Below, piece after piece: positions 739 to 35,506 of a stretch of DNA of 64,000 nt. The DNA comes from a virus (taxonomy: Duplodnaviria; Heunggongvirae; Uroviricota; Caudoviricetes), in IMG/VR virus record IMGVR_UViG_3300017705_000602; one strand, written 5' to 3'. Positions within the stretch are counted from its first letter, which is position 1; each line of letters opens with the position of its first letter. Under the pieces are notes generated by a model that was not told the origin of the DNA, ran no database searches, and saw nothing but the letters and a program-made list of their open reading frames with translations. The translations under genes and the position numbers were made by a program.

Positions 739-1455
739 ATGACTTATAGAGCAAACGGAGTGTTATTCGACAACTTGTTCGAAGCAGGAACGTCGGGTAC
801 TATCAACTACTCAGAAACCGGGACAAATTTCTCGAATATCTATCGAGGTCTAGAAAAGGACCAGCGCATACCTGATATCGGATATCGTAACAACGGAACT
901 GATCTTGCCCGTTTACTTAAAGGGAATATTTCTCAATATGCAAATACCTTGGAATTAACAACTTCGAGAACCACTGCTTGGAACGGAGGCATATTTTACG
1001 ATGTTGATGTTTCTTTCCCATCAACTACTGCCATTAACAACTTTTTTATATTTGGTGGACGTATTATAATGTCTGCATCAAGAACCGGTGGTTCGTCAAC
1101 TGCAAAAAATGCCGAATGGACCAGCCTGTTAAACGATGCAGGGAACATTGAACTGGCACGATCAGCAACATACAAAAACACCGAAACACAAGTATCGGGC
1201 ATAGGATATCTTGACCTTACAGGTTCCTACCAGTTGTTATACACCGAAACAGGATCGTCACCGTACACAACTGCGTTATACAGAATTTATGCATACATGT
1301 TAACTACAACCACTGTTCGTATACGTGTAAGATTCGACGATGGCGCATCGGGTGTAATTGACGAAAACATCGACGGCACAATCACAAGCTTTATTAACGA
1401 ACGCCGCCATCCGACACAAACTGCCCCGTCGTATAGCAGAGTCGGAGGTCTATAA
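739..1455 (+). CDS. hypothetical protein, Gly/Thr/Ser/Asn-rich beta-type composition (possible fibre/adhesin-like)
   Basis: 238-aa ORF; composition typical of receptor-binding/fibre tips; no catalytic motif seen. Confidence 0.45.
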   Translation: MTYRANGVLFDNLFEAGTSGTINYSETGTNFSNIYRGLEKDQRIPDIGYRNNGTDLARLLKGNISQYANTLELTTSRTTAWNGGIFYDVDVSFPSTTAINNFFIFGGRIIMSASRTGGSSTAKNAEWTSLLNDAGNIELARSATYKNTETQVSGIGYLDLTGSYQLLYTETGSSPYTTALYRIYAYMLTTTTVRIRVRFDDGASGVIDENIDGTITSFINERRHPTQTAPSYSRVGGL

Positions 1456-6258: not shown

Positions 6259-6513
6259 ATGAAACTAGAATTAAACAGAGTTACTTCGCATTTAAGAATC
6301 TTTATCGACGACAACAAGTCAACAGACAATAGAGATCCTTACGACACTATAATTACTGTTCAGCACATAAGTGATACAGAAGTACACTTGTCTGGACTTA
6401 AAGGTGTCATGAATAGAGAAATACTTAAAGAGATTGAACAGTTCTTTCGTGAACAAGGTGTTACCACTGTAACATTCGAAAGGCACGGAAAACAGCAATC
6501 TCGTAAAGATTAA
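6259..6513 (+). CDS. small hypothetical protein
   Basis: 84-aa ORF between tRNAs. Confidence 0.4.
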   Translation: MKLELNRVTSHLRIFIDDNKSTDNRDPYDTIITVQHISDTEVHLSGLKGVMNREILKEIEQFFREQGVTTVTFERHGKQQSRKD

Positions 6514-6514
6514 T

Positions 6515-6608
6515 GGAAGGTGACACGCCGAGATGGTCGGTGTCCTGGTCTTGAAAACCAGTGGAACCCTTGACGGGGTTTGGGGATCGTGCCCTCCGCC
6601 TTCCGCCA
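6515..6608 (+). tRNA. tRNA-Ser (anticodon TGA), class II
   Basis: anticodon stem ctggt/accag, loop ctTGAaa, long variable arm, acceptor ggaaggt/gccttcc, CCA; 94 nt. Confidence 0.65.
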
Positions 6609-6625
6609 TATAAAAGGTAGACAAA

Positions 6626-6892
6626 ATGACAATGAATGCGTATTATTGTTTAAGATGCGAACATCCTAACAATTGCAAGTGCGAAGACAAATCGAAAACA
6701 TTTCGGTATTCGCACAAGTTAAGAGTTCCTACATCGACCAAGAACAAAGTTAAGTTTAGAAAGTTCTTGGATGATTGTCCGATATTTGCTAATTGTGTAC
6801 CAGACGAGTTACAAGAAGATTTTCGTAACTTGTTAAGAAAAGTCAAGTACACCGGCCGTGAAATAAACGGTCACAAGTGGACAAAAGTTTAA
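6626..6892 (+). CDS. small Cys-rich (zinc-finger-like) protein
   Basis: 88 aa with CLRCEH..CKCED and C..C pairs. Confidence 0.45.
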   Translation: MTMNAYYCLRCEHPNNCKCEDKSKTFRYSHKLRVPTSTKNKVKFRKFLDDCPIFANCVPDELQEDFRNLLRKVKYTGREINGHKWTKV

Positions 6893-6893
6893 T

Positions 6894-6952
6894 GCCCTGG
6901 TAGCTCAGTTGGATTAGAGCATGCCGCTACGAACGGTAAGGCCGCAGGTTCA
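6894..6952 (+). pseudogene. tRNA-Arg (anticodon ACG) 5' fragment, truncated inside the T-loop at the HNH gene boundary
   Basis: intact acceptor 5' strand, D-arm, anticodon arm tgccg-ctACGaa-cggta and T-stem 5' strand gcagg-ttca; sequence then runs into tgataaatatatgcATG; no matching 3' acceptor found. Confidence 0.55.
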
Positions 6953-6966
6953 TGATAAATATATGC

Positions 6967-7644
6967 ATGGACTATACAAAACATTATGACGCCCTTATCG
7001 AACGTGCAAAACAGCGTGTGTTAACATGCTATACAGAAAACCATCATGTGATACCGAAATGCTTAGGTGGCAACGATACCAAAGAAAACATCGTGATGTT
7101 ACTACCGGAAGAACACTATGTAGCGCATCAGCTATTGGTAAAAATTTATCCTGGTAGTAAACAGCTTTTGTATGCGGCACTAATGATGACAGTTTCATCG
7201 GCAAGTGTTAAGCGTAAAAATAAAGCTTATAAATGGTTAAAAGAAAAATACCACTTGGTGTGCAAAGAAAGAACCGGTGTAAAAAATCCATCGTATGGTA
7301 AACCTTGGTATCACAATCCAGAAAATGGCGAATCGGGTAAATTTGAAGAAGATCAGCAACCCGTTGGATGGGTTAGAGGTCGAGTAAAGAAACCTAAAAG
7401 ATATTGCATTAAATGCAACACAGAAATTAATACATCTGTTGCTAAATGGTGCAACGAATGTAGACCAAAGAAAACTAAGAGTGTAATACGATCGGCTAAA
7501 CAAAAAGAAAAGTATTCTGAAGCTGATAAAATTAAAGCACTTAAAGAAAATAACGGTAATATAAGGCAGGCACTTTATAGCTTAGGTTTAAACGACAGCG
7601 GCTGGCATTATCGTAAAATGAAAGATTTATTAAGTAAGATTTGA
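6967..7644 (+). CDS. HNH homing endonuclease (paralog of 19865..20563)
   Basis: HHVIPKCLGGNDTKENIVML..EEHYVAH HNH motif, C-terminal CxxC..CxxC; start chosen by alignment with the paralog (MDYTKHYD / MDYKKLYY). Confidence 0.8.
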   Translation: MDYTKHYDALIERAKQRVLTCYTENHHVIPKCLGGNDTKENIVMLLPEEHYVAHQLLVKIYPGSKQLLYAALMMTVSSASVKRKNKAYKWLKEKYHLVCKERTGVKNPSYGKPWYHNPENGESGKFEEDQQPVGWVRGRVKKPKRYCIKCNTEINTSVAKWCNECRPKKTKSVIRSAKQKEKYSEADKIKALKENNGNIRQALYSLGLNDSGWHYRKMKDLLSKI

Positions 7645-7724
7645 GCGGTTGTATTCCCTCTGGCTACGAACCAGTTGAAAGGATAATTGGACACATGTAG
7701 GTTCGACTCCTACCTGCCGCGCCA
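7645..7724 (+). other. tRNA-like element immediately after the HNH stop codon (irregular; probable tRNA remnant or atypical tRNA)
   Basis: perfect T-arm gtagg ttcgact cctac, 3' acceptor ctgccgc + g + CCA, and a hairpin ctgg-ctACGaa-ccag carrying the same Arg-ACG anticodon loop as 6894 fragment; no room for a normal D-arm. Confidence 0.35.
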
Positions 7725-7732
7725 CTAACAAT

Positions 7733-7808
7733 GCGTCTGTAACTCAGTTGGTAGAGTGATGGTTTGAAGTACCATTGGTCGCTGGTTCGAACCCAGCCGG
7801 GCGCACCA
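7733..7808 (+). tRNA. tRNA-Phe (anticodon GAA)
   Basis: D-arm actc agttggta gagt, anticodon stem atggt/accat, loop ttGAAgt, T-arm gctgg ttcgaac ccagc, CCA. Confidence 0.8.
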
Positions 7809-7822
7809 TATTTAGGATAGAC

Positions 7823-8038
7823 ATGGATATCGAAGAGAAAACATTACTCAAGCTGTTTGAAATGAGGCACGGAGTATTAGCAAACAATTTTCACACTGAT
7901 ATCGAATATAACGACCCGACCATGATGGACCGTGCAGTAGGCGTAAATGTTTACAAAAACGGTGATTTTGTTTGGTCAGAGTCGGCAGTCAGTTTGTTGC
8001 TTTGGCACACTGGTAAACAATTAGGTATAAAAGAATGA
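7823..8038 (+). CDS. small hypothetical protein
   Basis: start moved to first ATG after tRNA-Phe; stop overlaps downstream start. Confidence 0.4.
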   Translation: MDIEEKTLLKLFEMRHGVLANNFHTDIEYNDPTMMDRAVGVNVYKNGDFVWSESAVSLLLWHTGKQLGIKE

Positions 8039-8481
8039 AACTGAGTTATAAAGATTGCGGCGTTATCGGATTTACTTGTAGTACATTTGATTTATTGCAT
8101 GCAGGTCATGTAGCAATGTTAGAAGAAGCAAAACGACAATGCGACTTCTTGATCGTAGGATTACAAAATGATCCGACTTTAGACAGACCAGTGCAAAAGA
8201 ATCCTCCTGTCCAAAGCTTAGTTGAACGCCAGATACAGTTAAGCGCAGTCAAGTTTGTTGACGATCTAGTGGTCTATAACACCGAAAAGGATCTTGAAGA
8301 TCTGTTGCTAACATTGCCAATTGCGGTTAGAATACTAGGTGTCGAATACGAGGACAAAGAATTCACTGGTAGAAAAATATGCCAGGACAAAGGAATCAAG
8401 TTGTTCTTTAACACACGAGATCACAGCTTTAGTAGCACCAGTTTAAGACAACGTGTAGCAGACTCGCAAAACGCAAAATAA
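8035..8481 (+). CDS. cytidylyltransferase-fold nucleotidyltransferase, RfaE/HldE domain II-like (heptose-1-phosphate adenylyltransferase family)
   Basis: HIGH motif FTCSTFDLLHAGHV; downstream LIVGLQNDPTLDRPVQKNPPVQSLVERQ mirrors HldE-II LIVAVNSD...RPVNPLEQR. Confidence 0.7.
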   Translation: MKLSYKDCGVIGFTCSTFDLLHAGHVAMLEEAKRQCDFLIVGLQNDPTLDRPVQKNPPVQSLVERQIQLSAVKFVDDLVVYNTEKDLEDLLLTLPIAVRILGVEYEDKEFTGRKICQDKGIKLFFNTRDHSFSSTSLRQRVADSQNAK

Positions 8482-10026: not shown

Positions 10027-11160
10027 GTGTCAAAACGAATAGTAGTAAAAGTTGGCTCTACATTGTTAGCAAACGAAGAAACACTTAGAATGCGATTTGC
10101 ATTTATGTGGGGTTTGCTACGTGATATAGCCGATCTACAAAATCAAGGTTACGATGTAGTACTAATGAGTTCTGGTGCAGTTGCACTAGGTAGAGAAATA
10201 CTCAAAACAGATGACAACAGTATTGCAACCAAACAAGCCGCATCGGCTTGTGGGCAACCAGTATTACTGCATGCTTACAGATCGATTGCACAAGAAATGA
10301 GCAAAGATATTGCTCAAGTGTTGGTTACCATGAGCGAAATGGAATCGCAAGATCATTTTGATGATATCAGCAACACAATTGAACGTTTGTTTGATTATCC
10401 TGTTATTCCTATTGTTAACGAAAACGATACCACAGCAACAAAAGATTTGCGCGTTGGCGACAATGACAGGCTAGCGGCAAAAGTTGCCGAAATGATTGGT
10501 GCAGAACACTTGGTTATACTTACCAGTATTGACGGTTTATACGATCGAAATCCAAGTGATCCAGACGCACAGTTTATCGATGTGCTTGATGATGTTAGTC
10601 AGTATATTGACGGCACAGAAGAAACAAACGGCCTGGGCAGCGGTGGCATGAAAACTAAATTGCAAGCCGCAAACATGGCACAGCAATGCAATTGTACCAC
10701 ACATATTGCCGAAGGCATCATAGATGCACCGGTGTCAAGTGTTATTAATAATACACGAGTGCATACTAAATGTTTGCCGATTGACCAGACAGCATCCAGG
10801 CAAGAACTTTGGTTAAGTAACCGATTGCGAGTAGCATGTTCGATTATTGTTCCGAAACAAGTTGCACAATCTCTTGCAGACACAAAGCAAAATATCGTGT
10901 ATAATGATATTGCTTCACGCTTTGGCGCATTCAGCAGAGATGATATTTTACATGTGTTTAGCGAAGATGGTGTTGAATTAGCACGTGGGTATGCAGAATG
11001 TTCAAGTGATGATCTTGAACACTTGCAACACATGCGCAACCAGTTTGATTCAGAATACGGTGCAGACGCATTGATAATCAAACAAGACCGCATGATGCTA
11101 GTGGAGTCCAGTCAGTTAAGCTGGGACGCACCGGACATTGAAACAACACAATCTGTTTAA
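10027..11160 (+). CDS. glutamate 5-kinase (ProB)-like amino-acid-kinase-family protein with C-terminal PUA domain
   Basis: VVKVGSTLL, VLMSSGAVALGRE, PIVNENDTTATKDLRVGDNDRLAA, GSGGMKTKLQAAN match ProB blocks; C-terminal region matches the ProB PUA domain. GTG start at 10027 chosen (AAGGA 8 nt upstream) because the track start at 9982 lies inside tRNA-Ser. Confidence 0.75.
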   Translation: MSKRIVVKVGSTLLANEETLRMRFAFMWGLLRDIADLQNQGYDVVLMSSGAVALGREILKTDDNSIATKQAASACGQPVLLHAYRSIAQEMSKDIAQVLVTMSEMESQDHFDDISNTIERLFDYPVIPIVNENDTTATKDLRVGDNDRLAAKVAEMIGAEHLVILTSIDGLYDRNPSDPDAQFIDVLDDVSQYIDGTEETNGLGSGGMKTKLQAANMAQQCNCTTHIAEGIIDAPVSSVINNTRVHTKCLPIDQTASRQELWLSNRLRVACSIIVPKQVAQSLADTKQNIVYNDIASRFGAFSRDDILHVFSEDGVELARGYAECSSDDLEHLQHMRNQFDSEYGADALIIKQDRMMLVESSQLSWDAPDIETTQSV

Positions 11161-13177: not shown

Positions 13178-13774
13178 CTAGGCCCTTTTTATAATTATTG
13201 CTTGACGACCCATGAACACATTAAGATGTTCATTGTGAATCATGCAAAAGCGGTTTACTGCTTTATAAACACCGGGCCAGTTTTCTTCACTGTAATCATC
13301 GAAATATAAAACTCCTCCTTTCTTTATTTTAGGATACCATTGGTTTATATTTGATTTAGTTTGATCGTAAGTGTGTCCTGCATCGATGTAGATAAAGTCA
13401 ACACTTTCGTCTTCGAACGTCATTTCTTCAACTGCAAGCGGAAGCACAGCTTTTACAAGATGCAGATTTTTTACATCTTGTAAATTTTCTCGTACAGTTT
13501 CCACGCAGTATATTTGATCCGTATCGGCATTATGTAAAAGTGAGTCTTGTTGAAAACTAGCAAGCGTTCTTGGATTACACGGATCACCGAACCAATCGTA
13601 ACAGTACAGATGAACAGAATCTTTTTTATTCATGCCAAGTGCATACGCACTTCTGCCTGCAAACGTACCGAGTTCTACTATGGTGCCATTTTCGGGCACT
13701 TGCTTTGCATATTTTGCTAAGTTTACGAGTGAGCAAGTATTTCCCCAACCGCATATATTTTCATTTATGATCAT
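13178..13774 (-). CDS. class I SAM-dependent methyltransferase (Methyltransf_24 / TylF-MycF-like O-methyltransferase family)
   Basis: minus-strand ORF; SAM-binding motif I IVELGTFAGRSA and motif FIYIDAGHTY...KGGVLYFDDY typical of TylF-type sugar O-methyltransferases. Confidence 0.65.
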   Translation of the reverse strand: MIINENICGWGNTCSLVNLAKYAKQVPENGTIVELGTFAGRSAYALGMNKKDSVHLYCYDWFGDPCNPRTLASFQQDSLLHNADTDQIYCVETVRENLQDVKNLHLVKAVLPLAVEEMTFEDESVDFIYIDAGHTYDQTKSNINQWYPKIKKGGVLYFDDYSEENWPGVYKAVNRFCMIHNEHLNVFMGRQAIIIKRA

Positions 13775-13853
13775 AGCATTATTTATCGGGTACTACACCT
13801 CACTGTGATAAATATACGAAGCATATCGTTTAGGTCGGCAATATAGGAAAACA

Positions 13854-19470: not shown

Positions 19471-19668
19471 ATGAGTAAAAAAATGTCAGCACCAACAAAA
19501 GACGAAATGTTCAAGCGTTTATGCAATGCAGTCTTGTACTGGGATAAAATAGACCAGCAATTCTTTGCTGACAATCCGACATATTTTGTAACAGATATTA
19601 AAAACTTCGCTAATCAGATACGAGAGTATCAAACGGAGTACCCGGAATCACTCAACGAAGATAAATAA
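19471..19668 (+). CDS. small hypothetical protein
   Basis: 65-aa ORF. Confidence 0.4.
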   Translation: MSKKMSAPTKDEMFKRLCNAVLYWDKIDQQFFADNPTYFVTDIKNFANQIREYQTEYPESLNEDK

Positions 19669-19677
19669 ACATATAAT

Positions 19678-19808
19678 GCGGGCGTAGCTCAGTTGGATTA
19701 GAGCAACGGTTGTTTAAATGTCCCCTGTGCCGACACCGGTCTTCTAAACCGGAAGCATAAAAAACGTTGGGTTGGAGCTGGGAGGTTCGACTCCTCCAGG
19801 GGATGCCA
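19678..19808 (+). other. composite tRNA-like region upstream of HNH gene
   Basis: 19678-19710 = normal tRNA 5' part (acceptor gcgggcg, ta, D-arm gctc agttggatta gagc). Further on: perfect hairpin ccggt-ctTCTaa-accgg, perfect T-arm ggagg ttcgact cctcc, then aggggat-g-CCA (matches gtcccct at 19718). No canonical cloverleaf. Confidence 0.35.
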
Positions 19809-19864
19809 TTTTTAAAATCTGTGATAAATACTTTTACTTTAATGTTAGAAGTAGAAGAATTATC

Positions 19865-20563
19865 ATGGATTATAAGAAATTATACTATTCGATTATTGAA
19901 AAGCGACAAAGGTGTACACCTACTGGATATACTGAAAAACATCATATTGTCCCAAGGTCGTTAGGTGGTACTAATGACAAAGAAAATTTAGTTAAGTTAA
20001 CTGCTAGAGAGCATTTTCTTTGTCATTACTTGCTTGCAAAAATGTATAGCAAAGAATCAGTTGAATGGTATAAAATGAATCATGCATTTTTAATGATGAA
20101 GTCATCGTCGGCAACACAACAACGGTACTTTAATTCGAAACTGTATGAAAGCTTAAAAGTGAATATGTCGTTTGTGATGTCAGAATCACAAACGGGCAAC
20201 AGGAACTCTCAGTACGGAAAGCGATGGATACACTCTGTGGAGTTACAGAAATCTGTTAAAATTCCTAAGGATGATCCTTTACCTGACAACTGGAAAGAAG
20301 GCAGAAGAGTTAACTGGGATCTTGTTAAAACATGCCCACAATGCGGTACAGAGTTTTTAAAGAGTTTAAAGAAGTACTGTTCGGATGATTGCAAGGATAA
20401 GGCAACTAATCCTTTCCGTGGTAAAGAACAAGAGTTTTTAGAATTGTATGCGGAGTACCAGAGCATGAACAAAGCCTTAAAGGCAATGGGATACCCTGGT
20501 GCAATTAGTCATTATTACCGTTGGGCGAAATCGGTTATAGGTAATAACAATTCAAATGTTTGA
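19865..20563 (+). CDS. HNH homing endonuclease (paralog of 6967..7644)
   Basis: HHIVPRSLGGTNDKENLVKL..REHFLCH motif; C-terminal CPQCGT..C..C zinc finger. Confidence 0.8.
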   Translation: MDYKKLYYSIIEKRQRCTPTGYTEKHHIVPRSLGGTNDKENLVKLTAREHFLCHYLLAKMYSKESVEWYKMNHAFLMMKSSSATQQRYFNSKLYESLKVNMSFVMSESQTGNRNSQYGKRWIHSVELQKSVKIPKDDPLPDNWKEGRRVNWDLVKTCPQCGTEFLKSLKKYCSDDCKDKATNPFRGKEQEFLELYAEYQSMNKALKAMGYPGAISHYYRWAKSVIGNNNSNV

Positions 20564-20659
20564 TAAATAGTTTTAACAAAGAATTCGACCGACAAACGGA
20601 ATTTCGCTACCGAAAGTCAGGTGTCGAACCGCCCGGGGTAGTGCCCGGGCACTTACAAT

Positions 20660-20743
20660 GTGGGTGCGCATCGGCGAGCAAAGCGGTCTCCAAAACCGTG
20701 GCCTTAATCGGCCTTGAGGGTTCGAATCCTTCCACCCGCGCCA
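20660..20743 (+). tRNA. tRNA with CCA anticodon (Trp-type), atypical 84 nt with extra variable hairpin
   Basis: acceptor gtgggtg/cacccgc (G-U at pos 2), anticodon stem gcggt/accgt, loop ctCCAaa, variable hairpin ggcc-ttaatc-ggcc, T-arm gaggg ttcgaat ccttc, CCA; D-arm not canonical. Confidence 0.5.
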
Positions 20744-24328: not shown

Positions 24329-24994
24329 ATGCGAATTGAACTGCTCGGAAATGATTATATTGACATACCCAACGATACCAGTGTAGGTGTCGGATTTAGC
24401 GGTGGTGTTGATTCTACTTTGTTATTGTACATAATGTTGCTATACTCGCCGCATACTGTATTTCCGCTTACTATAACAGTTAACAATCGTTATCATCGCC
24501 ATAAGCAAGTGGCATCGGAAGTTCTTGAACTGTGCTGTAATGAAACAGGCAACCACGAAGTTATACATTCGGCAATACATTGCAACGATATTGATTTAGA
24601 AAATGGCACTAACCCTACTGCATTAAAACAAAACTGGTTTTTAAAGTCTGGCATGATCAGCACTTTGTTTCTTGGTACTAACCAGTTACCACCAGCTGGT
24701 CATATACACACTGAAGACTTTCGACACAATCACACTGACGAGTACTATCGGCGAGAACCCGGTGTGTTAAAAGCTACTAGTACCCACGGTGGTGCATTTC
24801 AGTTGCCACTCATTAATTATGACAAACGACAAATCTGCGAGCTGTACAGAAAGTTTGGTATATCAGATGAAATATACAAGCGCACATGGTCTTGCTCGAC
24901 TATACTCAGTGACAAGGATTGGAATGTAAATAGACATTGTGGGAAATGCGGCCCTTGTCACGAACGTATTTTTGGGTTTGGAAAAATAGAATAG
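24329..24994 (+). CDS. QueC-like 7-cyano-7-deazaguanine synthase family PP-loop ATPase, paralog 2
   Basis: canonical PP-loop VGFSGGVDSTLLLY; C-terminus WSCSTILSD..HCGKCGPCHERIFGFG matches QueC zinc motif. Confidence 0.7.
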   Translation: MRIELLGNDYIDIPNDTSVGVGFSGGVDSTLLLYIMLLYSPHTVFPLTITVNNRYHRHKQVASEVLELCCNETGNHEVIHSAIHCNDIDLENGTNPTALKQNWFLKSGMISTLFLGTNQLPPAGHIHTEDFRHNHTDEYYRREPGVLKATSTHGGAFQLPLINYDKRQICELYRKFGISDEIYKRTWSCSTILSDKDWNVNRHCGKCGPCHERIFGFGKIE

Positions 24995-26312: not shown

Positions 26313-26543
26313 ATGGATAAAACAGCCACTTTTACCAGGTGGCTTTGTTTTTCGGTAACCAAGGATGGTTTTAGAACAGGCAGCGGATTTACAAAAGATC
26401 CTAACCGTGCTAAAGTCTACTTGCGTAAACCGAGCGCAAAGTCTTATTCTCGCTCATTAGCAGTAGTACCAGTTAAAATTGAATGTACTATTGATCTAGA
26501 AGCATTAACATACACAAAAATTTCAGGGACCGAATATGAGTAA
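26313..26543 (+). CDS. hypothetical protein
   Basis: 76-aa ORF. Confidence 0.4.
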   Translation: MDKTATFTRWLCFSVTKDGFRTGSGFTKDPNRAKVYLRKPSAKSYSRSLAVVPVKIECTIDLEALTYTKISGTEYE

Positions 26544-31220: not shown

Positions 31221-31449
31221 AATTTACGGAGCAACATGGTGTGGTTATTGTCGCAAAGCCAAGAGCTTGTGCGAATCTAACGAAGTTGAATTTGAATACT
31301 ACGATGTCGATCAAGCAAATCATAAGCAAGAACTTTTTGATCGCATGGACGAAAAGCCCGAGACCATTCCGCAAATATTCGTAGACAACAAACTTCTACC
31401 GGGCGGGTTTACTGCACTGAAAGAACACTTAACACAAAAAGCTGCCTAA
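31213..31449 (+). CDS. glutaredoxin (NrdC-like)
   Basis: MIEIYGATWCGYCRKAK (CGYC active site) and glutaredoxin C-terminal FVDNKLLPGGF. Confidence 0.8.
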   Translation: MIEIYGATWCGYCRKAKSLCESNEVEFEYYDVDQANHKQELFDRMDEKPETIPQIFVDNKLLPGGFTALKEHLTQKAA

Positions 31450-34420: not shown

Positions 34421-35506
34421 GTGGAATTTATACTTGCTTTAATTGGGCCTGCCGCAGTTGCCGTATTTGCAAAACTGTACTTCAAACAGGAAATCAGCAA
34501 ACGTGAAACGCTAGCACAGATTGCAATCGGTATAGGATTCGGGTTTATGGTGTCTGTATTGATTGCAATGGGTCAGCTACATGATAACGAATATGTTACA
34601 GGCCAAGTGATCAACAAGCATCGCGACAACGACAGCTACGAAGAAAGCTACGATTGCAATTGTCGCACAGTAACATCGGGTTCCGGAGATAGCAAAACCA
34701 CTTCAACGGTGTGCGACACTTGTTGGAAAACAATCTACACAGTGGACTGGTATTTAAGTTCTACAGTTGGGCGCATCGCAATCAACAGCCGTGAATCTGA
34801 AAGCCAACAAGTGTGGATTGCACCCAATCCACAAGCCTGGATCGACGCTAAAATCGGCGAAGCATGTACTACAGCTCGATCGTACCAAAACTATATTTTA
34901 GCGTCACCGGACAGTTTGTTTAATTCGTCGGAGTATGGCAATAACGAATTTGCTGTGCCAGGGTATCCGCGCATGCATTCCATATACAAAATGAAACATG
35001 CACTCACAGTAGACGGAGCAATACCTAACTCGGCTGAATGGACAGAACAAATTCGAGAACATTTAAAAATTCGCAATGCTAATAGCAGTCCAAATGTGTT
35101 GTTTGTGTTTACTAAATCAACCGACAGAACTTTTAAATATGCGCTAGAGCGTAATTGGACAGGCGGCAAAAAGAATGACTTGATTGTTGTTATCGGCACA
35201 GCCAACTATCCAAACGCAAACTGGACAGAAGTTATAACACTTGGTAAGACTTCCGGCAACGAACTAACGGCAGTAAAAATAAGAGACATAGTCGAAGATC
35301 ATCATCTAGATCCACAAGTAACAGTTAAAAATGTGTTTAGCATGATTGACAAGCACTTTGATATGAAACCGATAAGCGACTTTGAATATCTCAAAGACGA
35401 ACAACAAATGACATTATGGCAAGCATTAGCAGTTGTATTTGCTTCGATAATTGTTAGTATTATAGTAAGTTATATATTTTCACGCAACGCTTTAAGGAGC
35501 AAATAA
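34421..35506 (+). CDS. membrane protein with N- and C-terminal TM helices (DUF2207-like partner of LemA, tentative)
   Basis: GTG start; two N-terminal TM helices, large soluble domain, C-terminal TM; directly upstream of LemA-like gene as in bacterial LemA/DUF2207 pairs. Confidence 0.5.
   Translation: MEFILALIGPAAVAVFAKLYFKQEISKRETLAQIAIGIGFGFMVSVLIAMGQLHDNEYVTGQVINKHRDNDSYEESYDCNCRTVTSGSGDSKTTSTVCDTCWKTIYTVDWYLSSTVGRIAINSRESESQQVWIAPNPQAWIDAKIGEACTTARSYQNYILASPDSLFNSSEYGNNEFAVPGYPRMHSIYKMKHALTVDGAIPNSAEWTEQIREHLKIRNANSSPNVLFVFTKSTDRTFKYALERNWTGGKKNDLIVVIGTANYPNANWTEVITLGKTSGNELTAVKIRDIVEDHHLDPQVTVKNVFSMIDKHFDMKPISDFEYLKDEQQMTLWQALAVVFASIIVSIIVSYIFSRNALRSK

What the first reader, a model, noticed from the sequence alone, without database searches (positions are those of the whole stretch)
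6894..7724. HNH endonuclease gene inserted into or at a tRNA: truncated tRNA-Arg(ACG) upstream, scrambled tRNA-like remnant downstream
The 5' two-thirds of a canonical tRNA-Arg(ACG) runs intact to the middle of the T-loop at 6952. There it abuts the motif tgataaatatatgc and the HNH ORF. Directly after the HNH stop is a tRNA-like element with a perfect T-arm, 3' acceptor + CCA, and the identical ctACGaa anticodon loop, but no normal D-arm. This looks like a homing-endonuclease insertion that disrupted or rearranged a tRNA gene, or an intron-like arrangement. Either case is unusual for phage tRNA arrays.
Basis: seen in the sequence. Interest (0 to 1): 0.6.

Follow-up and report, generated by a model that had tools for sequence, protein, structure and literature searches.

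The report
Homing endonuclease carrying a rewired phage tRNA-Arg
A mobile HNH endonuclease gene has cut off an ordinary phage tRNA-Arg gene, and the "scrambled remnant" behind it is an intact member of a widespread, apparently undescribed class of phage tRNAs for arginine and isoleucine in which the D-loop and the anticodon arm have swapped places.

Summary
6894-6952 is the 5' part of a canonical tRNA-Arg(ACG), ending in the T-loop. It has no 3' partner anywhere nearby. Relatives without the HNH gene carry an intact tRNA-Arg(ACG) at exactly this spot.

6967-7644 is a free-standing HNH homing endonuclease (PHROG 655, T4 Mob-like). A phage about 12% diverged elsewhere carries the stub, HNH gene and downstream element at 95-100% identity, so the cassette moved recently. 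Among homolog loci that contain tRNAs, 20 of 28 have the HNH stop codon abutting a tRNA 5' end. Several also have a tRNA stub upstream.

The downstream element (7645-7724) is not debris. It belongs to a family of at least 84 distinct phage sequences with 98.9% of cells paired and compensatory changes in 18 of 19 pairs. The fold is a 7-bp acceptor, a T-arm, and a 3-bp stem enclosing the anticodon hairpin, followed by a D-loop-like linker.

Anticodons found are only Arg or Ile. The linker base after GG (A in Arg, U in Ile) and the discriminator (A in all Ile) track the anticodon. Arrays carrying the ACG form lack a canonical tRNA-Arg(ACG).

The family is phage-specific, mostly unannotated, and I found no description of it. 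Function in translation is inferred, not shown.

The parts
6626..6892 (+). 88-aa ORF of unknown function; left anchor of the site
   Evidence: Homologs in relatives are followed directly by an intact tRNA-Arg(ACG) (L083-85, L217), by tRNA-Val (L216) or by tRNA-Met (L087). Identity to L086 rises from about 65-85% within the ORF to 95% or more at its 3' end.
6894..6952 (+). Dead 5' stub of a canonical tRNA-Arg(ACG): acceptor 5' strand, D-arm, anticodon arm, variable loop, T-stem 5' strand and UUCA of the T-loop
   Evidence: Sequence read. Rfam tRNA 19.9 bits, below 29. Not called by ARAGORN. No 3' partner. It starts at the same offset after the ORF stop as the intact tRNA-Arg in L083 and L217.
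6954..6961 (+). GATAAATA box that travels with the HNH gene; it resembles the T4 late promoter TATAAATA and lies 5 nt before the ATG
   Evidence: TAAATA lies within 25 nt upstream of the ATG in 49 of 83 homolog loci, against 1.4% of random 25-nt windows. Spacing clusters at 4-6 nt or 15-19 nt. Promoter function is inferred. TATAAATA is not enriched in the window.
6967..7644 (+). Free-standing HNH homing endonuclease gene (225 aa; the ORF is also open from ATG 6952)
   Evidence: PHROG 655 'homing endonuclease', E 5e-47. DNA similarity to T4-type mob/HNH genes. Invariant E-HH-P-C-G-N-EH-AH motif across 25 homologs. Identity to L086 is 95-100% against an 87-88% background.
7645..7724 (+). Non-canonical tRNA-Arg(ACG) gene. 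Layout: acceptor 7645-7651 / 7714-7720; U8 A9 U; outer 3-bp stem 7655-7657 / 7681-7683 enclosing the anticodon hairpin (anticodon 7666-7668); D-loop-like linker UAAUUGGACACAU 7684-7696; T-arm 7697-7713; discriminator G7721; CCA 7722-7724
   Evidence: Model R1 97.5 bits. RNAalifold predicts the same structure independently. Covariation. Identity-linked bases.
7733..7808 (+). Canonical tRNA-Phe(GAA); right flank of the site
   Evidence: ARAGORN. Rfam tRNA 65.4 bits. tRNA-Phe also lies downstream of the intact tRNA-Arg, after an 82-aa ORF, in L083.
19678..19712 (+). Second stub: acceptor 5' strand, Arg-type D-arm (AGTTGGATTA) and the start of the anticodon stem of a canonical tRNA
   Evidence: Sequence read. 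Not called by ARAGORN.
19720..19808 (+). Divergent tRNA-Arg(UCU)-like gene that I read by eye as the same topology: outer stem CCGAC/GUUGG around the anticodon hairpin, anticodon 19743-19745, linker GUUGGAGCUG, T-arm, acceptor, G, CCA
   Evidence: Rfam tRNA-Sec 29.9 bits, below 47. R1 gives only 15.8 bits. Not called by ARAGORN. Assignment to the family rests on topology only and is tentative.
19865..20563 (+). Second HNH homing endonuclease gene of the same family (232 aa)
   Evidence: PHROG 655, E 2e-43. 38% identical to the first HNH protein. GATAAATA lies at 19823-19830 and again at 20563-20570.

Best explanation
The locus is a composite left by a selfish, free-standing HNH homing-endonuclease gene that travels with a tRNA gene at its 3' end.

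Shown: the slot right after the 88-aa ORF originally held an ordinary tRNA-Arg(ACG), because relatives still have one there. Everything from the middle of that gene's T-loop onward is now replaced by a cassette. The cassette consists of a GATAAATA box, the HNH gene and a complete tRNA gene. The upstream 59 nt is a non-functional stub. The cassette has recently moved between phage lineages. Identity to a phage that is 87-88% identical elsewhere rises through the flank to 95-98% over the stub and the HNH 5' end, and reaches 100% over the HNH 3' part and the start of the downstream tRNA.

Inferred: the endonuclease cuts the endonuclease-free allele of a co-infecting phage. Repair from the endonuclease-bearing genome then copies the cassette. 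The left junction forms in the universally conserved GGTTCR of the T-loop, which would explain why stubs of different tRNA identities end there.

The downstream element is the phage's working tRNA-Arg(ACG), built on an alternative scaffold. It keeps the 7-bp acceptor stem, U8-A9, the T-arm, the discriminator and CCA. A 3-bp D-stem-like helix encloses the anticodon arm instead of a D-loop. The D-loop sequence (..UGGA.., with the A20 equivalent) follows that helix as a 13-nt linker to the T-arm. My count of stacked layers from anticodon to core comes out about the same as in a normal tRNA.

Inferred: the element is processed, charged by ArgRS (and by IleRS for the Ile members of the family) and used in decoding. 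Its altered body spares it from something that acts on canonical tRNAs or on their genes. That could be a host tRNA-targeting nuclease or the homing endonucleases themselves.
For: Ancestral state:
- Intact canonical tRNA-Arg(ACG) sits directly after the ORF homolog in L083-85 and L217.
- The stub has no 3' partner and scores below threshold.

The endonuclease and its mobility:
- PHROG 655 match and a conserved HNH motif.
- Identity gradient against L086.
- L181 and L204 keep only the last ~18 nt of the HNH ORF in front of the element, a deletion scar.
- 20 of 28 homolog loci that contain tRNAs have a tRNA start within -60 to +25 nt of the HNH stop.
- Same-identity stubs lie upstream in L091 and L092 (Arg), L093 (Trp), L095 and L099 (Ala), and L083 (Asp). 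Junctions occur at GGTTCR in the window, L093, L095 and L109.
- C-terminal tails of eight homologs (KASLYPLATNQLKG and similar) match, by manual back-translation, the scaffold's 5' half.
- A second HNH gene with a stub and a scaffold-like Arg(UCU) lies in the same window.

The downstream element is a real structured RNA:
- 44 viral contigs match the exact core and 77 match with a free anticodon.
- Alignment A3: 99.1% of cells paired, covariation score 0.573 against 0.18 for shuffles.
- RNAalifold predicts the same fold on an alignment not fitted to the model.
- 84 distinct sequences: 98.9% paired, 18 of 19 pairs with compensatory changes.

Evidence that it works as a tRNA:
- It sits 1-10 nt from neighbouring tRNAs inside arrays.
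- Anticodons are only ACG, UCG, UCU, CCU or GAU, UAU, CAU.
- The base after GG in the linker is A in 52 of 52 Arg members that have GG, and U in 22 of 24 Ile members. The discriminator is A in 24 of 24 Ile members. These match the A20 identity element of ArgRS and the A73 element of IleRS, which I cite from established knowledge.
- 0 of 45 arrays (677 tRNAs) with the ACG form hold a canonical tRNA-Arg(ACG), against 5 of 21 arrays without the scaffold (Fisher p = 0.002).
- In Streptomyces phage Mildred21 all CGN and AGA decoders are of this type, and only Arg(CCU) is canonical.
- The window has no other tRNA-Arg.
Against: - There are no expression, processing, aminoacylation or ribosome data. 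Function in translation is inferred.
- The invariance of the anticodon arm is partly imposed by the search patterns. Alignment A4 is fitted to the model.
- The loci are short (flanks a few kb) and some are near-duplicates. A canonical tRNA-Arg(ACG) elsewhere in those genomes is therefore not excluded, and the Fisher test overstates independence.
- Some GAU and UCG members sit next to a canonical tRNA with the same anticodon (L225, L238, L251, L226). The scaffold is thus not always a replacement.
- The window copy has a U.U mismatch at acceptor pair 6-67.
- The endonuclease's cleavage site is unknown. The scaffold keeps a normal T-loop, so the T-loop alone cannot be the discriminating target.
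- L091 carries a homologous HNH gene in front of a canonical tRNA-Arg(ACG). The HNH clade is therefore not tied exclusively to the scaffold.
- Stub break-points vary among the T-loop, the anticodon loop and the D-arm.
Confidence: 0.72

Rival explanations
1. The downstream element is a degenerate, rearranged leftover of the tRNA that the HNH gene disrupted. It would be a pseudogene with no function.
For: It fails the Rfam tRNA threshold (25.1 bits against 29). It lacks a D-arm. ARAGORN does not call it. It shares the CTACGAA loop with the stub.
Against: - The same 77-nt architecture occurs in at least 84 distinct sequences from unrelated phages, with compensatory changes in 18 of 19 pairs.
- 72 of 77 viral-contig copies have no HNH gene next to them.
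- Its acceptor strands pair with each other, not with the stub.
- It occurs with six other anticodons.
Confidence: 0.02
2. This is an intron-like or split-gene arrangement. The stub and a downstream 3' part would be joined by splicing around the HNH ORF to give a mature canonical tRNA-Arg.
For: HNH ORFs do reside in phage group I introns. One homolog locus (L131) has a group I intron just upstream of its HNH gene.
Against: - No intron family matched at E up to 10 in 6700-7900.
- Only 15 nt lie between the stub and the ORF, and 0 nt between the ORF and the next RNA gene.
- No CCAGGGC or CCTGC..CCAGGG partner exists.
- The break lies in the T-loop, not the anticodon loop.
Confidence: 0.02
3. The scaffold RNA is a tRNA mimic rather than a decoder. 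It could be a decoy or sponge for a host tRNA-targeting defence nuclease or modification enzyme that recognises Arg and Ile anticodon arms. It could instead be a processing or regulatory element in the array transcript.
For: - The anticodon arm and flanking bases are extremely conserved compared with the acceptor and T stems.
- The family is phage-only: 8 hits in 185,579 species genomes, all on MAG contigs.
- Phage tRNAs are documented counter-measures against tRNA-cleaving defences (abstracts of PMC10264068, PMC11464382, PMC11555353, listed).
- Mildred21 also encodes RNA ligase, polynucleotide kinase and a Ro-like protein.
Against: - The distribution is complementary to canonical tRNA-Arg(ACG).
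- A full Arg isoacceptor set sits on this scaffold in Mildred21.
- A20- and U20-equivalent bases and the discriminator A73 track the anticodon class.
- CCA is encoded where neighbouring tRNAs encode it.
- Being a decoy and being a decoder are not mutually exclusive.
Confidence: 0.18
4. The upstream stub is kept because it is useful to the mobile element. It could serve as the left homology arm for homing into canonical tRNA-Arg genes, or as an RNase P/E-type processing or stabilising structure for the HNH mRNA. On this reading it is not simply decaying debris.
For: - The stub lies inside the high-identity tract shared with L086.
- Nearly identical Arg stubs precede the HNH genes of L091 and L092, although their downstream tRNAs differ.
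- Stubs are frequent.
Against: - The extent of the stub varies from 59 nt (window) to about 8 nt (L090, only CCTACGAA). Internal decay is visible in L091 and L092.
- The stub alone folds no better than shuffled sequence (z = +1.26).
Confidence: 0.12

Closest known systems
Phage T4 SegB, a GIY-YIG homing endonuclease inside the T4 tRNA gene cluster (PMC2330249; see also PMC13096335)
   Same: It is a free-standing homing endonuclease gene embedded in a phage tRNA array. It promotes preferential inheritance of the surrounding tRNA region in co-infections and so shapes the tRNA gene content.
   Different: SegB belongs to a different nuclease family (GIY-YIG, not HNH). As far as I know, the T4 case has no truncated tRNA stub and no endonuclease ORF whose stop overlaps the 5' end of a tRNA. 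No non-canonical tRNA is involved.
T4 Mob-family free-standing HNH endonucleases, such as MobE (PMC2790892); PHROG 655
   Same: The proteins are homologous (PHROG 655 E 5e-47; DNA hits to mobB-type genes). Both are free-standing, lie between conserved genes and are expected to home together with flanking DNA.
   Different: The clade studied here is specialised on tRNA arrays. Its ORF ends at or inside a tRNA gene. It is accompanied by tRNA stubs and a conserved TAAATA box. No biochemical data exist for it.
D-arm-lacking mitochondrial tRNAs (for example metazoan mt-tRNA-Ser(AGY) and nematode mt-tRNAs; reviewed in PMC4394434)
   Same: Both are functional tRNAs without a normal D-arm. Both have an extended anticodon-side helix and a retained acceptor/T domain.
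   Different: The mitochondrial tRNAs replace the D-arm with a short loop and often lose the D-loop/T-loop contacts. The phage RNA keeps a D-stem-like 3-bp helix, placed around the anticodon arm. It also keeps a full D-loop-like sequence with GG and the identity base, moved to the 3' side, and a normal T-loop. It is found in viruses of bacteria whose own tRNAs are canonical.
allo-tRNAs with 8/4 or 9/3 acceptor/T-stem structures (PMC5389517)
   Same: Both are non-canonical tRNA architectures found in genome and metagenome sequence data, and that report states that certain bacteria and their phages carry them.
   Different: The allo-tRNAs alter the acceptor/T branch and keep the cloverleaf order. 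Here the acceptor/T branch is canonical (7/5), and the D and anticodon domains are re-ordered.
Phage tRNAs that evade tRNA-targeting defences through sequence changes (PMC10264068; PARIS, PMC11464382; retron, PMC11555353)
   Same: These are phage-encoded tRNAs that differ from host tRNAs in ways proposed or shown to escape host nucleases. They offer a plausible selective rationale for an altered body.
   Different: The known cases are point changes in otherwise canonical tRNAs. Here the whole D/anticodon domain is re-wired, and no cognate defence is known.

Membership tests
HNH homing endonuclease, T4 Mob-like (PHROG 655) | Significant match to the family profile | tested here: met
   PHROG 655 E 5.1e-47 over residues 1-202. 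There is no Pfam-A hit at E up to 0.01.
HNH homing endonuclease, T4 Mob-like (PHROG 655) | HNH catalytic motif (His-His ... Asn ... His) conserved | tested here: met
   Invariant E24, H26, H27, P30, C32, G35, N41, E49, H50, A53 and H54 across 25 homologs. The alignment profile weakly matches the McrA HNH region (6ghc, E 9e-4).
HNH homing endonuclease, T4 Mob-like (PHROG 655) | Presence/absence polymorphism at a conserved site, with co-conversion of flanks | tested here: met
   The gene is absent in L083-85 and L217, which have an intact tRNA there, and present in the window, L001, L002 and L086. Identity against L086 rises from about 65-85% to 100%. L181 and L204 carry a deletion scar.
HNH homing endonuclease, T4 Mob-like (PHROG 655) | Site-specific cleavage or nicking of the endonuclease-free allele | not testable with these tools
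   This needs purified protein and target DNA. The target site is unknown.
Canonical tRNA (Rfam RF00005 cloverleaf): downstream element 7645-7724 | 7-bp acceptor stem, discriminator and CCA | tested here: met
   Six Watson-Crick or G.U pairs plus one U.U in the window copy. Across the family all 7 pairs covary and 98.1% of cells are paired.
Canonical tRNA (Rfam RF00005 cloverleaf): downstream element 7645-7724 | 5-bp T-stem with a GTTCRA-type 7-nt T-loop | tested here: met
   GTAGG-TTCGACT-CCTAC in the window. 4 of 5 pairs show compensatory changes in alignment A4.
Canonical tRNA (Rfam RF00005 cloverleaf): downstream element 7645-7724 | Anticodon stem with a 7-nt loop (U33, purine 37) | tested here: met
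   CUGG/CCAG plus a flanking U.U, with loop CUACGAA. All 4 stem pairs covary in alignment A4.
Canonical tRNA (Rfam RF00005 cloverleaf): downstream element 7645-7724 | D-arm (stem plus loop) between position 9 and the anticodon arm | tested here: not met
   Only UUCCC lies between U8-A9 and the anticodon stem. The Rfam alignment deletes the D-arm and inserts 18 nt in the variable region. The D-loop-like sequence lies 3' of the anticodon arm.
Canonical tRNA (Rfam RF00005 cloverleaf): downstream element 7645-7724 | Score at or above the curated threshold, or a call by a tRNA finder | tested here: not met
   25.1 bits against a gathering score of 29. ARAGORN calls none of the 77 viral-contig copies. 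tRNAscan-SE was not available.
Canonical tRNA (Rfam RF00005 cloverleaf): downstream element 7645-7724 | Aminoacylation and use in decoding | not testable with these tools
   The evidence is indirect only: identity-linked bases and a distribution complementary to canonical tRNA-Arg(ACG).
tRNA gene fragment / pseudogene: upstream piece 6894-6952 | Contiguous match to part of a tRNA, with the rest missing and no partner nearby | tested here: met
   tRNA positions 1 to about 57 are present. No T-stem 3' strand or acceptor 3' strand was found. An intact orthologous gene exists in relatives.
Group I intron in a tRNA gene carrying a homing endonuclease ORF | Intron catalytic core, insertion in the anticodon loop, and exons that reconstitute one tRNA | tested here: not met
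   No Intron_gpI or Intron_gpII hit at E up to 10 in 6700-7900. The break is in the T-loop. The flanking tRNA parts are not complementary.
D-arm-lacking mitochondrial-type tRNA | D-arm replaced by a short unpaired connector, with loss of the D-loop | tested here: not met
   The phage RNA keeps a covarying 3-bp helix (pair 11-39: AU 26, GC 6, CG 2, UA 1). It also keeps a 12-14-nt D-loop-like linker with conserved GG. The resemblance is functional, not membership.

The most novel reading that the evidence does not exclude
Tailed phages of very different hosts (marine jumbo myoviruses, Streptomyces and Microbacterium siphoviruses) share a virus-specific, fully functional alternative tRNA architecture. 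It is used only for arginine and isoleucine. In it the D-stem encloses the anticodon arm and the D-loop is relocated.

On this reading the architecture exists because the re-wired body, or its gene, escapes something that attacks canonical tRNAs or tRNA genes. That could be a host tRNase or the tRNA-array homing endonucleases themselves. HNH homing endonucleases such as the one in this window would then actively spread it by overwriting canonical tRNA-Arg genes.
Probability: 0.4. Interest if true: 0.92.

Novelty: new variant of a known kind. Interest (0 to 1): 0.8.

Why it matters
If the scaffold RNAs are charged and decode, bacterial translation systems accept a tRNA whose D and anticodon domains are connected in a different order. 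Until now, loss or remodelling of the D-arm was known essentially only from mitochondria. That would bear on several things:
- how ArgRS, IleRS, EF-Tu, RNase P, the CCA-adding enzyme, TadA and the ribosome recognise tRNA;
- the phage-host arms race over tRNAs;
- the design of orthogonal tRNAs.

It also matters for annotation. ARAGORN misses these genes, and GenBank records leave them unannotated or mislabel them. One Mildred21 copy is annotated 'tRNA-Phe(gaa)' and another 'tRNA-OTHER'. Phage tRNA repertoires and codon-usage analyses therefore systematically lack Arg and Ile decoders.

The HNH part gives a concrete picture of how homing endonucleases remodel tRNA arrays. They leave stubs, carry a tRNA with them and replace resident genes. 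The cassette and its endonuclease-free alleles are a ready-made system for mapping a new endonuclease specificity. Cultured phages (Mildred21, StarPlatinum, A3Wally) make all of this testable.

Tried and rejected
- Near-identity search of 6400-8100 against GenBank phages found no match. The distant search found only mob/HNH genes and tRNAs.
- An exact 28-mer of the element's 3' end gave 0 hits in viral contigs.
- A scan for relatives of the neighbouring cytidylyltransferase gene (80 loci, L003-L082) was not syntenic and carried almost no tRNAs. It was useless for this question.
- A viral-contig scan with the 88-aa ORF gave no confirmed relatives. The protein database route worked instead.
- A metagenome scan for the stub's 25-mer, looking for an uninterrupted allele with the same sequence, gave 0 hits. 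The exact ancestral allele was therefore not recovered. Only orthologous intact genes in relatives that are 78-83% identical in the neighbouring ORF were found.
- Single-sequence MFE folding of the element and the stub was uninformative (z-scores -0.2 to -2.2). Comparative analysis was needed.
Stubs were identified by eye and by local alignment instead. Their frequency is therefore not rigorously quantified.
- The T4 late-promoter reading of GATAAATA: the box is strongly associated with HNH homologs. However, TATAAATA is not enriched in this window (3 found, 4.7 expected). Promoter function stays an inference.
- The Y RNA-like (YrlA) match at 7668-7791 (25 bits against 69) was rejected as a by-product of the tRNA-like T-arm and the D-arm of the adjacent tRNA-Phe.
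- Nine literature searches, including one for the literal core sequence, found no description of the scaffold. The library covers open-access papers only.
Full report
**1. What is in the window**

The window comes from a large tailed phage. Its tail sheath is about 50% identical to those of Pseudomonas phage PA5oct and its relatives. A contig carrying the same locus occurs in JGI metagenome 3300017718. The first half of the window is a tRNA array. ARAGORN tRNAs there, none of them tRNA-Arg.

The order of features around the finding is as follows:
- an 88-aa ORF at 6626-6892;
- a tRNA-like piece at 6894-6952;
- an ORF open from 6952, with its likely real start at 6967, ending with TGA at 7642-7644;
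- a second tRNA-like piece at 7645-7724;
- tRNA-Phe at 7733-7808.

**2. The upstream piece is a dead stub of an ordinary tRNA-Arg(ACG)**

It contains the acceptor 5' strand, a normal D-arm, the anticodon arm with loop CUACGAA, a 5-nt variable loop, the T-stem 5' strand and UUCA of the T-loop. It then stops.
- Rfam's tRNA model scores it 19.9 bits against a threshold of 29.
- The complement of its acceptor strand is absent from the next 2 kb. No T-stem-plus-acceptor partner exists anywhere in the window.
- No intron family is detectable at E up to 10.

The ancestral state is preserved in relatives. I found them through homologs of the 88-aa ORF.
- In L083-L085 (ORF 83% identical, from a 331-kb contig) and in L217 (78%), an intact canonical tRNA-Arg(ACG) begins one base after the ORF's stop codon. 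That is exactly where the stub begins here. No HNH gene is present at that site.
- Other relatives have tRNA-Val (L216) or tRNA-Met (L087) in the slot.

**3. The ORF is a mobile HNH homing endonuclease**

It matches PHROG 655 'homing endonuclease' at E 5e-47. It resembles T4-type mob/HNH genes at the DNA level. It shares an invariant HNH motif with 24 homologs, nearly all of which start M-[ND]-Y. This places the start at ATG 6967.

Locus L086 comes from a phage that is 87-88% identical to the window in syntenic regions. It has an extra GIY-YIG gene nearby. L086 carries the same stub, HNH gene and downstream element. Identity rises from about 65-85% within the 88-aa ORF to 95-98% over the stub and the HNH 5' end. 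It is 100% from 7154 to the end of the L086 contig at 7681. This is the footprint expected of recent homing with co-conversion of flanks.

Loci L181 and L204 keep only the last ~18 nt of the HNH ORF in front of the downstream-type element. That is a deletion scar, so the gene is also lost again.

**4. The arrangement is the habit of this endonuclease clade**

Among 83 homolog loci, 28 contain tRNAs. In 20 of those, a tRNA 5' end lies within -60 to +25 nt of the HNH stop codon. The tRNA identities are varied: Arg, Trp, Val, Ala, Pro, Gln, Thr, Lys, Asn, Asp, Tyr.

Upstream of the HNH gene there is often a 5' stub of a tRNA of the same identity as the complete tRNA downstream:
- Arg in L091 and L092;
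- Trp in L093;
- Ala in L095 and L099;
- Asp in L083.

In the window, L093, L095 and L109 the tRNA-derived sequence immediately upstream of the HNH gene ends at the T-loop GGTTC(G/A). What follows is a conserved box, (CAAAA)(T)GATAAATA. TAAATA lies within 25 nt of the ATG in 49 of 83 loci against 1.4% of random windows. Its spacing is 4-6 nt, or 15-19 nt with a GGAG in between.

The box resembles the T4 late promoter TATAAATA. Promoter function is my inference, and the octamer is not enriched in this window.

The window holds a second HNH gene of the same family at 19865-20563 (PHROG 655 E 2e-43, 38% identical to the first). It is preceded by another Arg-type tRNA stub at 19678-19712. Between that stub and the gene lies an uncalled tRNA-Arg(UCU)-like gene at 19720-19808.

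**5. The downstream element is an intact member of a widespread RNA family**

Two homolog loci whose HNH proteins are only 48-53% identical to the window's (L090, L092) carry the same odd element after the stop codon. They show compensatory changes in its stems.

Scans of viral contigs gave these counts:
- 44 loci matched the core CTCTGGCTACGAACCAGTNGAAAGG.
- 77 loci matched when the anticodon was left free.

Thirty-five distinct ACG sequences align without difficulty (alignment A3). RNAalifold on that alignment, and my own reading, give the same structure:
- a 7-bp acceptor stem;
- U8-A9-N;
- a 3-bp helix;
- one unpaired C;
- a U.U mismatch next to a 4-bp anticodon stem with a 7-nt loop;
- NGAAA;
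- the 3' strand of the 3-bp helix;
- a 12-14-nt linker (UAAYUGGAYACAU);
- a normal T-arm;
- the discriminator.

The covariation support is strong.
- In A3, 99.1% of cells are paired. All seven acceptor pairs, three T-stem pairs and pair 11-39 (AU 26, GC 6, CG 2, UA 1) show double changes. The covariation score is 0.573 against 0.18 for shuffles and 0.07-0.13 for slid partners.
- A covariance model (R1) scores the window copy 97.5 bits and ordinary tRNAs 28.5 bits or less.
- Over all held loci, R1 finds 105 copies, 84 of them distinct. In that set 98.9% of cells are paired and 18 of 19 pairs carry compensatory changes. These include every pair of the anticodon stem and of the outer helix. This alignment is fitted to the model, so it leans towards the structure.

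**6. Why I read it as a working tRNA with a re-ordered body**

(a) Position. Copies sit in tRNA arrays, often 1-10 nt from neighbouring tRNAs. Many encode CCA and others do not.

(b) Anticodons. They are restricted to Arg (ACG, UCG, UCU, CCU) and Ile (GAU, UAU, one CAU). The search pattern would also have admitted Thr, Lys, Asn, Ser and Met loops.

(c) The linker is a displaced D-loop.
- The Arg linker AACUGGAUA compares with the E. coli tRNA-Arg D-loop AGCUGGAUA.
- The Ile linker AAGUGGUCA compares with AGGUGGUUA.
- Both E. coli sequences are quoted from memory.
- The base after GG is A in 52 of 52 Arg members that have GG, and U in 22 of 24 Ile members.
- The discriminator is A in all 24 Ile members.
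- From established knowledge, A20 is the major ArgRS identity element in the tRNA body, and A73 belongs to the IleRS identity set.

(d) Complementary distribution.
- None of 45 arrays (677 called tRNAs) that carry the ACG scaffold has a canonical tRNA-Arg(ACG). Five of 21 arrays without the scaffold do (Fisher p = 0.002).
- The caveats are short loci and some near-duplicates.

(e) A cultured example. In Streptomyces phage Mildred21, the annotated tRNAs between 60 and 105 kb include only Arg(CCU) as a canonical tRNA-Arg. Model R1 finds scaffold genes for Arg(ACG), Arg(UCG), Arg(UCU) and Ile(GAU).

(f) Synteny. In this window the element takes the place of the destroyed canonical gene, and it is the window's only tRNA-Arg(ACG).

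By my count, the stacked helix (3 bp, an internal loop, U.U, 4 bp) has about the same number of layers as the D-stem plus anticodon stem of a normal tRNA. An L-shape of normal dimensions is therefore plausible, but this is inference. There are no expression or charging data.

**7. Distribution and prior knowledge**

The family is essentially viral. A scan of one genome for each of 185,579 bacterial and archaeal species found 8 hits. All were on MAG contigs, and at least one of these has the same length as an IMG/VR viral contig.

In GenBank phages it occurs in 45 Streptomyces phage records (family Stanwilliamsviridae) and in Microbacterium phages A3Wally and Zooman. No feature is annotated under those matches. 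The Mildred21 annotation is inconsistent from copy to copy:
- the Arg(UCG) copy is annotated 'tRNA-Phe(gaa)' and is directly preceded by an annotated HNH endonuclease;
- the Arg(UCU) copy is annotated 'tRNA-OTHER'.

Rfam 15 has no family for it. Nine full-text searches, including one for the literal core sequence, found no description. The library holds open-access papers only, so prior description elsewhere cannot be excluded.

**8. How the endonuclease and the scaffold tRNA relate**

Only 5 of 77 viral-contig copies, all of the ACG type, have the HNH gene directly upstream. The scaffold is therefore an independent gene that one HNH clade has attached itself to.

The attachment is old. The C-terminal tails of eight homologs (...KASLYPLATNQLKG*...KASVYPHATNV* and similar) match, by manual back-translation, the scaffold's 5' half.

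Canonical stubs next to scaffold genes of the same amino-acid identity recur:
- in the window, twice;
- in L092;
- in L220, a tRNA-Ile stub lies 16 nt before a scaffold Ile(GAU), with no HNH gene between them.

This suggests that canonical Arg and Ile genes are repeatedly overwritten by scaffold versions. I consider it plausible, but unproven, that the scaffold gene is resistant to an endonuclease that cuts canonical tRNA genes, or that the scaffold RNA is resistant to a host tRNase.

Two observations count against a simple version of this idea. L091 has a homologous HNH gene in front of a canonical tRNA-Arg(ACG). The scaffold also keeps a normal T-loop.

**9. Verdict**

The 'homing endonuclease disrupted a tRNA' interpretation is supported. 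The 'scrambled remnant' and 'intron-like' interpretations are not.

The endonuclease part is a new variant of a known phenomenon, namely homing endonucleases in phage tRNA clusters such as T4 SegB (PMC2330249). The scaffold tRNA is the surprising part. It is a conserved, phage-specific, Arg/Ile-restricted tRNA architecture with the D-loop and the anticodon arm exchanged, and it is missed or mislabelled by annotation.

Noticed in passing
window 19678-20570: A second instance of the theme in the same window. An Arg-type canonical tRNA stub lies at 19678-19712. A divergent, uncalled tRNA-Arg(UCU)-like gene that I read as having the same nested-stem topology lies at 19720-19808. A second PHROG 655 HNH gene lies at 19865-20563. 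GATAAATA boxes lie at 19660-19667, 19823-19830 and 20563-20570.
   Followed up: partly
window 20660-20743: The tRNA-Trp(CCA) called by ARAGORN is 84 nt long. It has a long variable hairpin (GGCCUUAAUCGGCC) and no clear D-stem. Rfam scores it only as tRNA-Sec at 30.1 bits, below threshold. It may be another non-canonical phage tRNA.
   Followed up: no
L261 (Streptomyces phage Mildred21, MF155946.1) 13704-13780, 26380-26454, 31368-31443, 34858-34934: There are four scaffold tRNAs in a cultured phage. Ile(GAU) and Arg(ACG) are unannotated. Arg(UCU) is annotated 'tRNA-OTHER'. Arg(UCG) is mis-annotated 'tRNA-Phe(gaa)' and is directly preceded by an annotated HNH endonuclease CDS. The phage also encodes a tRNA nucleotidyltransferase (immediately upstream of the Ile copy), a Ro-like protein, an RNA ligase and a polynucleotide kinase.
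   Followed up: partly
L083-L146 (tRNA arrays bearing HNH homologs); window tRNA-Ser 6515-6608: A T-loop variant, GGATCG(T/A)NNCC (A at position 54, often U at 58, instead of GGTTCGAATCC), occurs in 20 of 176 called tRNAs. It is weakly enriched among tRNAs that abut an HNH stop codon (5 of 17 against 15 of 159, Fisher p = 0.03). It could be a cleavage-resistant allele of the T-loop DNA.
   Followed up: partly
L083 4340-4420: An odd tRNA-like element (GGGTGCGTATTG...ATTGCGCACCA, with acceptor-like ends and no obvious T-arm) lies just upstream of the tRNA-Asp stub and the HNH gene of that 331-kb phage contig.
   Followed up: no
L131 1201-1391: A group I intron (Rfam Intron_gpI, 65.2 bits, above threshold) lies directly upstream of that locus's HNH homolog inside a tRNA array. 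Some members of the clade may therefore be intron-associated.
   Followed up: no
L181 about 10890-10909 and L204 about 2433-2452: The last ~18 nt of the HNH ORF (tatatgaaaaaattaaaa) persist between tRNA-Gln and the scaffold tRNA-Arg(ACG), with no HNH gene present. This is a scar of endonuclease gene loss.
   Followed up: yes
L220, 16-43 nt upstream of the scaffold Ile(GAU) at 1331-1407 (minus strand): A canonical tRNA-Ile 5' stub (GGGTGTGTAGCTCAATTGGTTAGAGTG) lies immediately before a scaffold tRNA-Ile(GAU), with no endonuclease gene between them.
   Followed up: partly
L182 and L213, the ~86 nt upstream of the scaffold Arg(ACG): An uncalled tRNA-like gene (CCCCACT...AGTGGGGACCA) with an unusual T-loop, AGCGTTA, lies between tRNA-Ile and the scaffold gene.
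   Followed up: no
L086 2348-2977: The close relative carries a 209-aa gene with a faint SegE-type GIY-YIG match between tRNA-Ser and the 88-aa ORF. The window lacks it. This is a second, independent homing-endonuclease polymorphism in the same array.
   Followed up: no
window 8035-8481 and 24329-24994: A cytidylyltransferase-like gene (Pfam CTP_transf_like, E 1.8e-10) and a QueC-like queuosine-biosynthesis gene (PHROG 1550, E 2.7e-16) are embedded in the tRNA array. Relatives of the cytidylyltransferase gene are very common in viral contigs (552 confirmed loci), but the 58 examined are almost all outside tRNA arrays.
   Followed up: no
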